This document shows, in pieces, positions 21,001 through 27,000 of a DNA stretch of 64,000 nucleotides; position 1 is the first letter of the stretch; each line of letters begins with the position of its first letter. The stretch is from Chthoniobacteraceae bacterium (GTDB taxonomy: Bacteria; Verrucomicrobiota; Verrucomicrobiia; Chthoniobacterales; Chthoniobacteraceae). The position numbers were made by a program. The stretch lies in assembly GCA_037190965.1 (NCBI GenBank), contig JBBCKI010000028.1, forward strand, positions 64,001 to 128,000. Direction: 5' to 3'.

Positions 21001-24000
21001 CAAGATTGCCGCGTTGGAGCATATTCAGGCGGAAGGGCGACCATCCCGCTCTTGCGAACAGATTGCCTTTCGCATCGGTGCCGCCGGGTTCCTGAGCTTT
21101 CCGGGGGAATTCTTTGTCGAAAGCGGATTGCAAACCAAGCGCGACGCGGTATCCCAGTTTACCTTCCCCCTTGGAATCACCAATGATTATATCGGGTACG
21201 TTCCCACCGAAGAAGCCTTCAGGGAAGGGGGGTATGAGGTGGCCTGCGCACGCTTCTCTCCCCGGGCTGCGGCTCAATGGACTTGTACCGGGGTGGATCT
21301 GCTCAATCACCTGTTCTGAATCCGCTCTTTCATGATCGAATGGTTTTCCCTTCCGAGCGCACGGCGCGTGGTGGTCCTTATCTTCGTTTTTCTTCTCTTT
21401 GGATTCGCCGGATCAGGCTACGCTAAGAAGCCGAAGCTGGTATTGAAAGTTCAAGGGCTTCCCAATGAGGCCTCCACCGATCCGGTTTCCATCGCGGAAC
21501 AGCGGGTTGTCGCCCGGTTTCAGCAGTTGCATCCTGAGATCGAAATCCAAGGGGCGGAAGGGTTGCGGGTGGAAAACATGAACTCGGAGGCGACGACGAT
21601 GATGATGATCGCCGGAGGCGTGGCGCCGGATCTCATCCGAATGAACTTCCGCAGCAGCGATACTTACATCCGGCAGGGTATTGCTGCTCCGCTCGATGAG
21701 CTTTTGCAGGAAGCGGCCACGAATGGCGACGATATCCTTGCTTCAGTACCGCCGCAGATCATGCCCGTTCTTCGCAAGCAGGGGCTGGACGGTAAAAAAC
21801 ATGTCTATGGCATTCCGACGCAACTGGTGGTCAGCGGCATCTTTTTCAACAAAGAGCTCTTTCGCGCCGCCCGTCTGCCCGCCCGCGCTCCGAAGGACTG
21901 GGCGGAACTTGCGGAGTTCGCACGACGGATCAAAGCACTCGGGCCGCAGGTTCATGGCTTGGTTCTGCCTGCGGGGGCATCCGCAAGCTTTCACCTGATG
22001 AATTTCGTTCGTGCCGCTGGAGGCGATGCGGTCGTGGAGATCGCTCCCGACGAATGGCGTGCCGCATTCAACTCCCCAGAAGCGCTGGAAGCCTACCTCT
22101 TTTATTACCGCTTGGTGGAAATCGAAAAGACCGCCTACCGCACCTCCCGACCACCCACTCCTGAGGAAATGCGCTCCGTCGGCATGATGTTTCGTTATGT
22201 TGGGGACACCGTGCAACTCGACCCCGAGCTCTGGGGATTTGGTCCTATTCCCAAAGGGCCTCAGGGCGATGGAGGCTCCGAAATCAACGCGGGGATTCTC
22301 GCCATCTTTTCGGGAATTGCAGACCCGCAACGCCGCCGGGCCGCGTGGGATTACATGCGCTTTGTATCGAGCGAGGAGGCGAACCGCCTTCGCACTGAAG
22401 CGCTGGTGGAGCTCGGCCAGGCTAGCCAGATTAATCCGGTGATGCTCCGGAAATTCGGCTTCCATGAATCCTTGATGATGGTGCAACCGGGGCTGGAGAA
22501 GGAGTTCGCCAGCGCGCTTGCGGAGGGCAAGCCGGAGCCCTATGGGAAGAACTGCAATCTGATCTATCTTGAGATGACCTACCCTCTGGATCAGATCCTG
22601 TTGAGCACGAGCATCCGGCGGGCTTGGGATGCAGGCGACATGCTTTCGGTGCGGCGGCAATTCCAAACCATTCTGGACCGAGCGGTGGCAAAGACCAACG
22701 AGCGGATGATCGGCCATGTCGATCCTGACTCGATGAAGTTCCGCCGAAAGGTGACGGCATTCATCGTGGCGGGGATTGCCGCCTGTTTCGCAGCGGTCGG
22801 CATTTATATCATACGGGCCTTCTCGCATTCTGCTTCGATCGTTTCGCGGCCCGTAGCGACCCGCAGGTCGTTCGTTCCGTGGCTCTGCCTTCTTCCGGCT
22901 CTCGGATTGACGCTGGTTTGGGACTATCTTCCTCTGCTTCGGGGAACCGTTCTTGCGTTTCAGGACTACCAGGTCTTGCTCCCATCCACTTTTGTGGGGC
23001 TGGACAACTTCGCCAATGTCCTCTTCGACGCCGGTTTCTGGAACTCCATCCTGGTAACGGCGTATTTTGCAGGCTTGAAGCTGACCTTCGGATTCGCAGC
23101 TCCGATCCTGCTTGCCTACATGCTGCATCTGATCCCTCGGCACAAGGTGATCTACCGGACGCTCTATTATCTCCCGGCGGTGATCAGCGGCACAGCGGTC
23201 TATTTTCTATGGAAGGCGCTTTTTGATGGGGAAGGGATCCTGAACCAACTGCTACGCCTGGCGGGATTCGAGGCTACCCGCGCCTGGACGCAAGACCCTT
23301 ATCTCGCCATGTTGAGCTGTGTGATTCCGGGGATCTGGGCGGCTGCCGGGCCAGGCTGCCTGATTTATCTTGCGGCCCTTAAGACGATTCCGGAGGAGCA
23401 GTTTGAAGCCGCCGAGATCGATGGCGCGGGGTTCTGGCATAAAACGACAAAAATTGTCTTCCCCGGGCTGAAAGCGCTGATCGTCATCAACTTTGTGGGT
23501 GCGGTCGCCGCAGCGCTGCAAACTTCAGCCAATATTCTCATCATGACAGGCGGCGGACCCAATGGAGCCACGGGGGTAACCGCGCTCCTCATCTTCACGG
23601 AAGCCTTTACGCGCCTGCGCTTCGGCACCGCAACTGCAATGTCGTGGATCATCGGCAGCATGCTCCTCGGGTTCACCGCCATTCAGTTGCGCCGCTTGAG
23701 TGCCATGGAATTCAAGACCGCGAAGTAAGCTCCTTCACCCATGTTTTTCTCTCCGATCACGGAACGCTCCTTTCATGTTCGCGCCTTCTACAAGGCCGTT
23801 TATGCGTTTCTCTTCCTTGGCGCGCTGACCATGGTGATTCCGTTTGTCATCATGCTAAGCGGCTCGGTGGAACCGGGTGTGCGCTTTAAGGATTCGACCT
23901 TCTTCCCTGCCTATTTGGTCAGCGATCAAGCGCTCTGGGGGCGCTATATCGAGGCCCGCTACAAAAATGAAAGCGAGACGCTCCGCATGGCGTGGGGCGA

Positions 24001-27000
24001 TGCGGGCGTGGAAATGCAGAAGCTTCCCGCGCCTATGCCGGATTTGGCGGCGAATGCGATGTGGCGGGAGTTCCTGGCTGAAACCACCCCCTCCGAGATC
24101 ATGTTCCGGGCAGGCTTTAGCGGGGCAGGGGCAACTATTCCCTATTACTACAACCGTGAGTTCCGACAGTGGCTGGCGCGTCGCTATGGAACGATCCAGG
24201 AAGTCAATCGGCAGCTCGGCACCACATTCAGAATCTTCCAGGCGATCCAGCCGCCGAATCTTTCGATTTCCGGAGCCGCCCTGAACCGGACGCCGCTTGT
24301 TGACCATTTCCTCGAGTTTTGCCGGACGGAGATTCCGCCCAGTCGCCAGTTTGCCTGGGACGCCGGTGAATATTACCGGAACGTCTTTTTGCCGCGTACT
24401 GAAGGCGAAGAGATCTCCGGTTACAATGCCAAGTATGGCACTCACTATGCCGGTTATTCGGAGGTTCCGTTTCCCGAAGCCGTACCCCGGGTGGCCGCAG
24501 AACCGTGGGTTGACTTTGTGACCAAGTTTCTTCGCCCTGACTTCGTGGACCTCACCCCTGAAGGAAGGGGGCGGCTGGAAACTTCGGGATTGGGCAAAGC
24601 GGAATTTATCCGCCTTTCGGCCAAACCGGAAGAGGTCCGCGTGGTGACTCTGGACCGGGAGTTTGCGGCATGGGCGAAGCAACGATATGGACTGGAGAAC
24701 GCCTCCATCCCGCAGTTCTCACTCGATTCGGAGGCGTTCCAAAAAGAGAAGGGCTTCTGGAAATGGGTCTTTCTTAAGCAAAATTATCAATACGTCGTGG
24801 ACGAGATCCTCCTTCACGGCCGGGCGATGTGGAACACGGCGGTGTTGGTCTGTCTGAAAGTAGGGGGTGCGCTTCTGGTCAACCCTTTGGCCGCTTATGC
24901 GCTTTCCCGCTTCAAACTTCGCAAAACGTATCATCTTCTCCTCATCTTTCTTTTGACGGTCGCCTTTCCCGCCGAGGTGACAATGATCCCTGCCTTTCTG
25001 CAACTGAAGGGTTTTAATCTCCTGAATACCTTCTGGGCTTTGGTATTACCTGGCTTGGCGAACGGCTTCTCGATTTTTCTGCTCAAAGGCTTCTTCGATA
25101 GCTTGCCGAAGGAGCTCTACGAGGCGGCGGAAATCGATGGGGCGAGTGAGTGGAGAATGTTCTGGATCATCACGATGAATCTCTCCCGGCCCATCCTGGC
25201 GGTGATTGCCCTCAACTCGTTTGTCGCGGCTTACGGCACGTTCTTCTACGCATTGATTGTCTGTCCCGATCCGAAAATGTGGACCATCATGGTCTATCTC
25301 TACCAGCTGCAGAGCACCGCCGGATCGCCGATTGTCTATGCCTCATTGATTCTCACTGCAATCCCGACGCTCGTGATCTTTATCCTCTGCCAGAACATCA
25401 TTCTGCGTGGGATTGTCGTACCTTCGGAGAAATAAACTCTATGCTTAAACTCGGTATCATTGGATCGGAAAACTCGCACAGTTTCAAAATCGCCACCCTC
25501 TGCAATGTAGAGAAACGCATTCCCATCGAGGTGACCCATCTCTGGGGAGAAACAGAGGAGTCCGCCAGGCAATCCGCAGAGAAGGGGAGTATCCCCCGGA
25601 TTGTGGTCGATTGGAGGGAAATGCTCGGTCAGGTGGACGGGATTATGATCGACCACCGTAATGGAGACCGCCATGAGGAGCCTGCGGAGTATTTCATCTC
25701 AAAGGGGGTGCCGACGTTCGTAGACAAGCCGATGACTTGCCGGCTTTCCAGTTCCCGCCGTCTGCTGGAACTTGGCTGCCGCCATTCTGTTCCGGTATTG
25801 ACCTTCAGCGCCAAGCCTATTCAAAAGGCATTCAAGGAGTTCGCCGCGAGAGTGGAAGCAGCGGGTTCCGCCCGGGCGGTCCACTCATGCGGCCCCGCAA
25901 ATATTCAGAGTCCGCACGGCGGCATCTTCTTTTACGGGATCCACCAGGTCGATGCGATTGTGGAGATGATGGGATGCAAGGCCACGGAGGTCGCGTGCCA
26001 TAGGTCGGGGCGAAATGCCGTGGGAGTCATTCTCTTTTCGGGAGGAAGGAGCGCGACGGTTCAGCTCATCGAAGAGGGAAGCCCGCGTTTCCATTGGACT
26101 GCTCATCTCACCGACGGAGAATCCCTCACCCACGCGGATCTGAGCGATGCCGATCCGTATCTGAGTAGTGGAGAATTGATCTACGGGTTGCTTTCAAAGG
26201 GCGAAGTTCCCTTCTCCGCAGAACGCATGCTGGCTCCCATTGCCATTTTGGAGGCTTTTTCCCGCGCCCTCGCTTCGGGTAAGCCGGAACGCGTGGAAGC
26301 GATATAGCCCTGCCGGCGCTTGCGAATCATTGTAAATACTTAACTCAAAAGCGCCCTATCCGCATTCCTGCTGTCCAGTACCAGTTTGATCCGTAAAATC
26401 AGTTCGCGGGGGCTGAATGGCTTGGTAATGTAATCATCCGCCCCCGATTCAAGACCGGCAAGACGATCGAGTTCATCACCATTTGCCGTGAGAATGATAA
26501 CCGGAATCCGGGCAGTCTGCGGATTTCCTTTCAAGGTCCTGCAAACCTCAAGGCCATTCATCTGCGGCATGTTTTGGTCAAGAATCAGAAGATCGGGCTG
26601 TTGCTGGCGACACGCTGCGAGGGTAGCGAGGCCATTCTCCGCCTGAGCGACCTTAAAGCCGCCGCTCCTCAAATGAAGGCTGAGCAGGTTTCGCAAATCA
26701 TCTTCGTCATCGGCGATGAGAATCGATGAAACCATAGGATAAGGTTTGACTTTGCAGGGTGAAGACTTCTGTCAGGCGGGAGAGGAATCCGACGAGAGAT
26801 CAGATTCGGATTTCCACGTCAGCCGGTAGCCGATGCCGCGAATGCTCTGTAGTTGCTCGCCCAAGGGACCAAGCTTTCCTCTCAACCGGCGCATGTGGGT
26901 ATTGATGGTCTTGTAATCGAGGGCTTGTCCGGATGAGCCGGACAAGGCCTTGGTGAGTTCCCGCTTTTCAACGACCAACCCGGGCTTTTTAATGAGCATC

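What a model noticed while it worked through the whole genome (the two positions that open the first line are those of the whole stretch)
21332..25435. Sugar ABC importers with binding protein fused to MalF-type permease and GH42-repeat domain in MalG-type permease
Eight glycan loci encode a two-gene carbohydrate ABC importer of unusual build: the binding protein is fused to the MalF-type permease (715-898 aa), and the MalG-type permease (549-781 aa) carries a 300-550-aa periplasmic insert built of repeats of the helical insertion subdomain of GH42 galactosidases. No ATPase gene lies in these loci; two MsmX-like genes lie elsewhere.
Evidence so far: Eight pairs with domain and hydrophobicity maps. 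The fused binding protein-permease is in 7 of 30 phylum genomes. The long permease has 253 representatives at E<=1e-30, mostly 550-980 aa with repeated matches. Model pLDDT 86: the membrane part matches MalG (Z 19.1) and insert residues about 120-200 match GH42 enzymes (Z 7.6-8.1, rmsd 2.1-3.4; call 95). Paper searches found nothing.
(Added by a program. Inside this text positions count along the whole contig: contig position 64,001 is position 1 of the stretch shown here. "Call 12" and the like, gene names such as g00115 and contig names such as C1 are that model's own, and its searches are not shown. The text may have been shortened before it was handed on; [...] marks where a part breaks off. 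The agent that wrote the report below was given it as the finding of a first reader that could run no searches.)

Follow-up and report, generated by a model that had tools for sequence, protein, structure and literature searches.

The report
Sugar importer with enzyme-derived repeat arm
A widespread, unstudied family of bacterial sugar importers has its sugar-catching protein tied to one membrane subunit and, on the other subunit, a large outside domain built from repeats of a piece of sugar-cutting enzymes, which most likely holds the tethered catcher in place.

Summary
Confirmed, with corrections. 21332-23728 encodes a sugar-binding domain fused to a MalF-type permease. 23741-25435 encodes a MalG-type permease with a ~305-aa insert in its first periplasmic loop. 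The genome holds eight such pairs (one truncated) and two distant MalK-type ATPases. The insert is one rigid domain (pTM 0.91) of ~70-aa repeats, homologous to a helical subdomain shared by GH42, GH14, GH35 and GH50 enzymes, so it is not GH42-specific; it lacks GH42's sugar-contacting Trp loop. The family is in 57 of 201 phylum genomes. Insert and fusion travel together: 67 of 80 related loci, and no short-permease member among 79 matches. A binding-protein-MalF fusion is already published (Bdellovibrio), so only the insert is new. Best reading: the insert is a MalF-P2-like arm gripping the tethered binding domain. Complex prediction gives weak support (0.39, best control 0.00; 18 of 157 solved and both passing mismatches of 215 passed at 0.60 or under). 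A glycan-capturing role remains open. The scan noted this family before on another genome (e1-943272). New variant of a known kind.

The parts
21332..23728 (+). F gene: solute-binding domain fused to a MalF-type permease, 798 aa
21332..21424 (+). Predicted Sec signal peptide (residues 1-31), placing the binding domain in the periplasm
   Evidence: sequence read directly; hydropathy segment 4-32; inference, no signal-peptide predictor was run
21428..22726 (+). Family-1 (maltose-binding-protein-like) solute-binding domain, about residues 33-465
   Evidence: SBP_bac_1 E 2e-19; family profile hits solved sugar-binding proteins, best E 4e-25
22745..22825 (+). Extra anchoring transmembrane helix (472-498) that links the binding domain to the permease
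   Evidence: hydropathy; topology inferred
22883..23725 (+). MalF/SugA/UgpA-type membrane domain with EAA coupling motif (residues 692-698)
   Evidence: SugA E 2e-20, MalF E 2e-11; motif read from sequence
23741..25435 (+). G gene: MalG-type permease with a large first periplasmic loop, 564 aa
23783..23872 (+). TM1 of G (15-44), equivalent to MalG TM1
   Evidence: hydropathy; structural alignment to 2r6g_G spans model residues 11-564
23876..24796 (+). Periplasmic repeat domain (residues 46-352), folds as one unit
   Evidence: pLDDT 94.9, pTM 0.91; repeats
23918..24133 (+). Repeat unit 1 (divergent)
   Evidence: unit profile 20 bits
24143..24385 (+). Repeat unit 2; best match to the GH42/GH14/GH35 helical subdomain
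   Evidence: 52 bits; Z 8.0 to 3tts, 7.7 to 1b90; alignments
24371..24577 (+). Repeat unit 3
   Evidence: 35 bits
24650..24715 (+). Truncated last repeat unit, leading into the long helix back to the membrane
   Evidence: position-specific profiles give order 1-2-3-5 for this protein; helix 304-316
24824..25432 (+). MalG-type core (TM2-TM6) with EAA motif and conserved C-terminal tail
   Evidence: MalG E 7e-15; Z 19.4; E461 and G467 at least 90% conserved in 115 rows
20033..21319 (+). Upstream gene of the probable operon: neutral-ceramidase-like amidohydrolase
   Evidence: PF04734 E 1e-12; 12-bp gap to F
25441..26307 (+). Downstream gene of the probable operon: Gfo/Idh/MocA oxidoreductase
   Evidence: PF01408 E 3e-9
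16279..17448 (-). GntR/LacI-type regulator of the locus
10458..14480 (-). Large secreted PcRGLX-like (lyase-like) protein; hint of a glycan substrate
   Evidence: PF21345, PF19501

Best explanation
A type I carbohydrate (CUT1) ABC importer of three parts: SBP-MalF fusion, long MalG, and a shared MalK-type ATPase dimer encoded elsewhere. It imports oligosaccharides or sugar derivatives released by the enzymes of each locus. The tethered binding domain captures the sugar in the periplasm and docks on the F/G pore; ATP hydrolysis drives alternating access as in MalFGK2. The repeat domain sits in MalG's P1 loop, the position that corresponds to MalF's P2 loop in the other subunit. It most likely works as a P2-like arm that grips one lobe of the tethered binding domain, steers it into the docking pose and couples its closure to the pore. 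It arose once, by insertion and tandem duplication of the small helical subdomain of TIM-barrel glycosidases, and is kept as a structural protein-contact module. Shown: domain anatomy, position of the insert, repeat nature, homology, co-occurrence, EAA motifs. Inferred: topology, use of the orphan ATPases, substrate class, and the arm function.
For: Membrane parts match MalG (Z 19.4, rmsd 3.9, 264 residues) and SugA/MalF. Both orphan ATPases pass the NCBIfam UgpC-subfamily cut-off (475 and 481 vs 432 bits). A MalK-type gene lies beside the pair in 2 of 80 related loci and in L119, 55-61% identical to the orphans. Coupling: 67 of 80 long-G loci have a fused F. With the G membrane core alone as query, all 79 matches at 194 bits or more (57 of 201 genomes) lie in open frames of 478 aa or longer, and the next match scores 126 bits. 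39 of 40 genomes with a strong binding-domain match also have the insert. In E. coli, MalG P1 and MalF P2 cross-link to MalE's N-lobe (PMC6906923). In glycosidases the subdomain packs against a neighbouring chain (PMC7105311). 469 of 490 full motif copies have the short loop and only 2 carry the Phe-Trp pair, so GH42's sugar-contacting loop is absent (1kwg alignment). Predicted complex of binding domain and insert: weak support, score 0.39, best of 3 controls 0.00, runs share at least 85% of contacts, partner pLDDT at least 86. The mark was reached by 116 of 157 solved complexes and 2 of 215 mismatches, but at 0.60 or under by only 18 of the 157 and by both mismatches; the counts hold only roughly for my own alignments. 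A second, unrelated subfamily also pairs a fused F with a ~300-aa P1 insert (8 of 9 such loci).
Against: The complex score is weak and no interface was given. A covalently tied binding domain does not obviously need a second tether. Insert size varies widely (about 230 aa in L138 to proteins of 979 aa; 0-7 motif copies per protein), more than one contact surface needs. Co-occurrence within one clade (SH-aLRT 99, quick tree, only 5 outgroup rows) is largely one evolutionary event, not many independent ones. One fused F (L150) has a partner without a large insert. No substrate, expression or binding data exist.
Confidence: 0.55

Rival explanations
1. The repeat domain is a multivalent glycan-capturing arm. 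It binds long oligosaccharide chains on its surface and feeds them to the single tethered binding domain, making up for the fixed 1:1 ratio of binder to pore.
For: The unit comes from carbohydrate-active enzymes. One paralogue unit aligns with B. cereus beta-amylase residues 200-269 at E 2.9e-6. I recall that a surface maltose site of that enzyme (Ser235, Tyr249) lies in this stretch; only the title of that paper (Ye et al. 2004) was seen, in reference lists. Copy number varies, as in sugar-binding arrays. Unit 2 has conserved Arg and Trp/Phe positions. The scan's notes report CBM-like domains in the same loop of other permeases (unchecked).
Against: The GH42 substrate-contacting Trp loop is missing. 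The recalled beta-amylase site residues are not kept in the aligned paralogue. Most conserved aromatics are also conserved in the enzymes, as expected of a fold core; surface exposure could not be computed. Similar inserts (36-52% identical to the window's in three paralogues) serve loci with different enzyme sets.
Confidence: 0.25
2. The repeats dock periplasmic glycosidases on the transporter by mimicking the subunit contact that this subdomain makes in GH42/GH164 trimers, so that cleavage products are channelled into the importer.
For: The subdomain contacts a neighbouring catalytic domain in GH164 (PMC7105311), and residues of the neighbouring subunit complete the GH42 active site (PMC10688820). 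A GH42M-containing gene lies in the C34 locus.
Against: No neighbouring gene family other than F and G recurs in more than 6 of 80 related loci (antisense shadow ORFs set aside, and ABC ATPase genes merged into the F cluster). The inter-subunit Trp loop is lost. In several lineages F and G stand outside enzyme clusters.
Confidence: 0.08
3. The insert is mostly a spacer or stabilising lid (assembly of the F/G dimer, contact with peptidoglycan or the outer envelope) with no specific partner.
For: Low sequence conservation (mean column identity 33% vs 49% for the binding domain) and free gain or loss of units after unit 3.
Against: It is never absent in 79 of 79 clade matches, folds as one rigid body, and keeps invariant positions.
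Confidence: 0.12

Closest known systems
Bdellovibrio bacteriovorus MalE-MalF fusion maltose importer (Licht et al. 2019, PMID 30193862; seen only as described in PMC6906923)
   Same: A CUT1 importer with one maltose-binding-protein-like domain fused to the MalF subunit, giving a 1:1 binder-to-pore ratio.
   Different: No repeat domain in MalG is mentioned in the passages read; the original paper was not held. No Bdellovibrio record is among the 80 best long-G loci, so the fusion here is probably independent (inference).
E. coli MalFGK2-MalE (2R6G); also AlgM1M2 (4TQU) and SugABC (7CAD)
   Same: Same membrane fold (Z 19.4, 17.9, 15.1), EAA motifs, MalK-type ATPase. E. coli has a large periplasmic domain (MalF P2, residues 91-276) after the last peripheral helix that binds MalE.
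   Different: Here the large domain is on the MalG subunit, is helical and repetitive instead of Ig-like, and is 230 aa to several hundred residues long; the binding protein is covalently tied; the ATPase gene is usually elsewhere.
OpuA and GlnPQ (substrate-binding domains fused to the translocator)
   Same: Tethered binding domain; PMC8025302 passages describe GlnPQ. A docking 'scaffold' domain in these systems is recalled, not checked.
   Different: Homodimers for osmolytes or amino acids, with two or four binding domains; this is a heterodimer with one, of the carbohydrate family.
Subdomain H of GH42/GH164 and the matching insertion of GH14, GH35, GH50, GH167
   Same: Sequence profile E 1e-6 to 1kwg; Z 4.0-8.0, rmsd 2.1-3.4 over 63-76 residues, the top 9 rows all glycosidases, next row Z 2.9.
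   Different: One copy inside a catalytic barrel there; several tandem copies with no barrel and no catalytic residues here, and GH42's 5-residue Trp loop is missing.

Membership tests
CUT1 type I ABC importer | Two BPD_transp_1 membrane subunits of MalF and MalG type | tested here: met
CUT1 type I ABC importer | EAA coupling motif in both subunits | tested here: met
   read from both sequences; E461 and G467 at least 90% conserved in G; a strict pattern matched 90 of 137 long G, the other 47 not examined
CUT1 type I ABC importer | Family-1 solute-binding protein | tested here: met
   SBP_bac_1 above cut-off in 8 of 8 F paralogues
CUT1 type I ABC importer | MalK-type ATPase with C-terminal OB domain available | tested here: met
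   two orphans; adjacent in L053, L094, L119. Physical pairing not tested
CUT1 type I ABC importer | ATP-driven uptake of a carbohydrate | not testable with these tools
   substrate class inferred from neighbours
Maltose importer proper (MalF, MalG, MalE equivalogs) | Reaches the curated MalF/MalG cut-offs | tested here: not met
   55.6 vs 392 and 70.7 vs 261 bits; UgpA/UgpE also far below
GH42 beta-galactosidase | Catalytic TIM barrel with two glutamates and a trimerisation domain | tested here: not met
   only profile positions about 130-228 of 376 match in any long G scanned; the model is helical with no barrel
GH42 subdomain H | Extra loop carrying the inter-subunit substrate-contacting Trp | tested here: not met
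   5-residue deletion against 1kwg, 4oif, 6y2k; 469 of 490 copies short, Phe-Trp in 2. That 1kwg Trp182 is this residue is recalled; the role of the neighbouring-subunit Trp200 in BiBga42A is from PMC10688820
Glycosidase beta4-alpha4 helical subdomain (GH42/14/35/50/167) | Shared sequence motif and three-dimensional arrangement | tested here: met
   Z near 8 is modest alone but agrees with the sequence profile
MalF-P2-like docking arm | Lies in the periplasmic loop between the last peripheral helix and the five-helix core | tested here: met
   alignment; helix numbering from PMC3971661 and PMC6906923
MalF-P2-like docking arm | Binds the solute-binding protein | tested here: inconclusive
   weak support only: 0.39 vs best control 0.00; 18 of 157 solved and both passing mismatches of 215 passed at 0.60 or under
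MalF-P2-like docking arm | Ig-like fold of E. coli P2 | tested here: not met
   the insert model is mainly helical; analogy of role, not of fold

The most novel reading that the evidence does not exclude
A non-catalytic subdomain of glycoside hydrolases was lifted into a transporter and multiplied into a new repeat family that binds glycan chains. With the tethered binding domain it forms a self-contained capture-and-import machine for long oligosaccharides, and is a main periplasm-to-cytoplasm glycan route of Verrucomicrobiota, Lentisphaeria, Kiritimatiellia and some Planctomycetota, expanded up to eight-fold in glycan specialists.
Probability: 0.25. Interest if true: 0.8.

Novelty: new variant of a known kind. 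Interest (0 to 1): 0.55.

Why it matters
Verrucomicrobiota and their relatives are major degraders of complex glycans (own knowledge), yet their inner-membrane uptake is little studied. This family is in over a quarter of sampled phylum genomes, is expanded 7-8-fold in some, and occurs in a cultured strain (Oligosphaera ethanolica DSM 24202, L054), so it can be tested. It offers a natural experiment on how a tethered binding domain docks, a clear case of an enzyme subdomain re-used as a repeat module, and a warning: the repeats push many of these permeases above Pfam's GH42 cut-off (19 of 27 long representatives), so they can be miscounted as galactosidases.

Tried and rejected
Assembly artefact for the fusion: rejected; 120 listed homologues of 696-850 aa cover 87-100% of F. 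Catalytic GH42 domain in the permease: rejected. Foldseek on the insert alone: no match at E<=0.001, though the best rows were the same glycosidases. ESM Atlas: only unnamed clusters under 0.9 for the insert and no usable hit for the second subfamily's insert. Conserved enzyme neighbour as substrate clue: none. Extra named domains in long G: only DUF4397 above cut-off, in 1 of 27. Expression: no RNA holder listed; no evidence either way. Scan look-up by sequence found nothing. Ten paper searches: I saw no paper on this family in the listings; most hits were seen as listing and abstract start only. Passages were read in PMC8025302, PMC3971661, PMC7105311, PMC10688820, PMC6906923, PMC5735674 and PMC6559716; no supplements were read. 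Licht et al. 2019 was not held and may survey fused CUT1 systems. The careful tree did not finish; the quick tree is quoted. For alignments A3/A4 I kept 61 of 74 candidate pairs plus the window pair, dropping incomplete, very long or poorly aligned ones. Inter-protein covariation was not tried: 62 pairs are too few. Surface exposure of conserved residues could not be computed without coordinates.
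Full report
Observation. The window holds two adjacent + strand ORFs, 21332-23728 (F, 798 aa) and 23741-25435 (G, 564 aa), 12 bp apart, between an amidohydrolase-like gene and a Gfo/Idh/MocA gene. F has an N-terminal hydrophobic stretch, a family-1 solute-binding domain, one extra membrane helix and a MalF/SugA-type membrane domain. G has one helix at 15-44, about 305 polar residues, then five more helices matching MalG. The G model is confident (pLDDT 94.2, pTM 0.89) and aligns with E. 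coli MalG at Z 19.4, rmsd 3.9 over 264 residues from model position 11 to 564. So the first helix is MalG TM1 and the insert lies in periplasmic loop P1.

The genome. Eight F/G pairs and three ordinary three-gene sugar importers were found. The motif scan listed no ABC ATPase in these loci. Two 373-aa MalK-type ATPases lie elsewhere and pass the UgpC-subfamily cut-off. The C49 F copy has lost its first ~60 residues, signal peptide included, so seven pairs look intact. Neighbours include sialidase-like, GH20-, GH27/36-, GH78- and GH88-like genes and esterases in four loci, and a lyase-like gene in this window; C49 has sugar-catabolic genes, and C48 and the second C4 locus show no clear glycosidase.

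The insert. A motif profile finds 589 copies in 158 long permeases and 0 in their shuffled inserts, with spacing mostly 65-79 aa; a full-unit profile covers a median 81% of the insert in 137 proteins longer than 540 aa. The window protein has three units and a truncated fourth. In 47 of 137 proteins the order begins with the same three position-specific units, with extra copies after them. Folded alone, the insert gives pLDDT 94.9 and pTM 0.91: one rigid body, not beads on a string.

Its origin. A profile of 38 units hits GH42 (1kwg 156-196, E 1e-6), GH14 (3voc, E 3e-6), beta-1,2-glucosyltransferase 7vkx, GH50 agarase (E 0.004) and GH167 (E 0.07). Structurally, the nine best of 48,161 chains are all glycosidase barrels (3tts Z 8.0, rmsd 2.2 over 65; beta-amylase 1b90 Z 7.7, rmsd 3.4 over 76; 1kwk Z 7.3), then the list falls to 2.9. 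Z near 8 would be weak alone, but sequence and structure agree. This is the helical subdomain between strand 4 and the next helix described for GH42 and GH164, which packs against a neighbouring chain (PMC7105311, passages). It is not GH42-specific. The GH42 enzymes aligned have five extra residues in the loop; the neighbouring-subunit Trp that contacts substrate is described for BiBga42A (PMC10688820, passages), and I recall that 1kwg Trp182, which falls in those five residues, is its equivalent. 469 of 490 full permease copies have the short loop, like beta-amylase, and 2 carry the Phe-Trp pair. One paralogue unit hits beta-amylase 200-269 at E 2.9e-6 as a single sequence.

Range and coupling. 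The best 80 of 506 loci come from Chthoniobacterales, Lentisphaeria, Kiritimatiellia, Planctomycetota, Gemmatimonadota, Latescibacterota, Fimbriimonadia and Cloacimonadota records. 67 of 80 have a fused F in the locus; 2 have F cut by the contig end, 1 has F in two overlapping frames, and 10 show no F. Of those 10, five lie near a contig start, and the other five all have a fused F elsewhere in the genome. To avoid selecting by the insert I searched 201 phylum genomes with the membrane cores alone. The G core gives 79 matches at 194 bits or more in 57 genomes, all in open frames of at least 478 aa, then a gap to 126 bits (frames are stop-to-stop, so upper bounds). The F core gives 87 matches at E<=1e-38 in 61 genomes; 86 lie in frames of at least 774 aa and one starts at a contig edge (five belong to a second subfamily). 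39 of 40 genomes with a strong binding-domain match also have the insert. Eleven of 14 divergent G loci fetched had an F within the stretch, and all 11 were fused. The long-G cores form one clade (SH-aLRT 99, quick tree, 5 outgroup rows), so this is mostly one event inherited. The family is patchy: none of 5 sampled genomes of the same order had it. A MalK-type gene is adjacent in 2 of 80 loci and in L119.

Mechanism. The transporter reading is secure (about 0.95). For the insert, position is the best clue. MalG has one helix and MalF three before the five-helix core (PMC3971661, passages), and MalF's P2 joins helices 3 and 4, so MalG P1 is its counterpart. Both cross-link to MalE's N-lobe, and isolated P2 binds MalE at 7-22 uM (PMC6906923, passages). 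A predicted complex of binding domain and insert gave weak support: 0.39 against a best control of 0.00, runs sharing at least 85% of contacts, partner pLDDT at least 86. The mark was reached by 116 of 157 solved complexes and 2 of 215 mismatches, but at 0.60 or under by only 18 of the 157 and by both mismatches, and the counts hold only roughly for my alignments. No complex of this insert is solved, so a pass from memory is unlikely but the result stays weak. A second subfamily pairs a fused F with a different ~300-aa P1 insert that has no Pfam match, in 8 of 9 such loci; the ninth (L150) has no large insert. This fits a link between tethering and a big P1 domain without proving it. I put the arm model at 0.55, glycan capture at 0.25, spacer at 0.12 and enzyme docking at 0.08. 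Against the arm model are the variable repeat number and the apparent redundancy of a second tether.

Comparison and novelty. The fusion has a precedent: B. bacteriovorus MalE is fused to MalF (Licht et al. 2019, seen only through PMC6906923; the paper itself was not held). Tethered binding domains are well known from GlnPQ (PMC8025302, passages) and OpuA (listing). I saw no description of the repeat-bearing MalG in ten searches of the open library; subscription papers and supplements were not seen. The scan's own notes hold what reads as the same family on another genome with the same reading (e1-943272), and CBM-like or cytochrome-c-like inserts in the same loop; my reading was recorded before I saw them, and they are not independent support. 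Verdict: real, a new variant of a known kind, interest 0.55.

Noticed in passing
L141:2210-6512, L142-L147, L149: A second subfamily: binding domain fused to a MalF-type permease, paired with a MalG-type permease carrying a different ~300-aa first-loop insert with no Pfam or Atlas match.
   Followed up: partly
L111:1857-4271 and L112:4074-6503: MalF- and MalG-type permeases fused in one ~805-aa chain beside a separate binding protein.
   Followed up: no
L121:6347-7876: A free-standing ~500-aa paralogue of the fused binding domain, with a lipoprotein-like start and no permease nearby, in a genome with seven fused pairs; it could dock on them in trans.
   Followed up: partly
L132-L138, L114, L115: In some lineages F and G are unlinked or separated by other genes; in complete genome G197 they lie megabases apart. 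Family f33 has a shortened ~230-aa insert with no detectable repeat.
   Followed up: partly
L032, L037, L049, L054 and most Lentisphaeria/Kiritimatiellia F proteins: An extra ~75-aa hydrophobic hairpin inserted in the F membrane domain, absent from the window's F.
   Followed up: no
window 15523-16248 and 17736-20024; L001, L005, L006: Prepilin-like DUF1559/H-X9-DG genes, PEP-CTERM passenger-repeat proteins and GntR-LacI hybrid regulators recur beside the importer loci.
   Followed up: no
L002:7197-8009: The start of the C49 F gene is replaced by opposite-strand DNA that reads like a LacI-type regulator fragment; a phage-integrase gene lies about 2 kb downstream of the pair.
   Followed up: partly
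L045:566-4997: A cluster that looks like type III secretion translocon and chaperone genes in a rumen Kiritimatiellia record (pattern recalled, not tested).
   Followed up: no
window 28003-36048: PEP-CTERM protein, Sel1-repeat-like protein, two-partner-secretion-type outer-membrane protein and ExbB/ExbD-like genes downstream of the locus (read, labels recalled, not scanned).
   Followed up: no
G000 C29:159791-163831 and C28:56747-58780: The only two non-permease proteins of the genome with a clear repeat-motif hit, one copy each: a GH42-like enzyme with the long loop and a 1346-aa uncharacterised protein with the short loop.
   Followed up: partly
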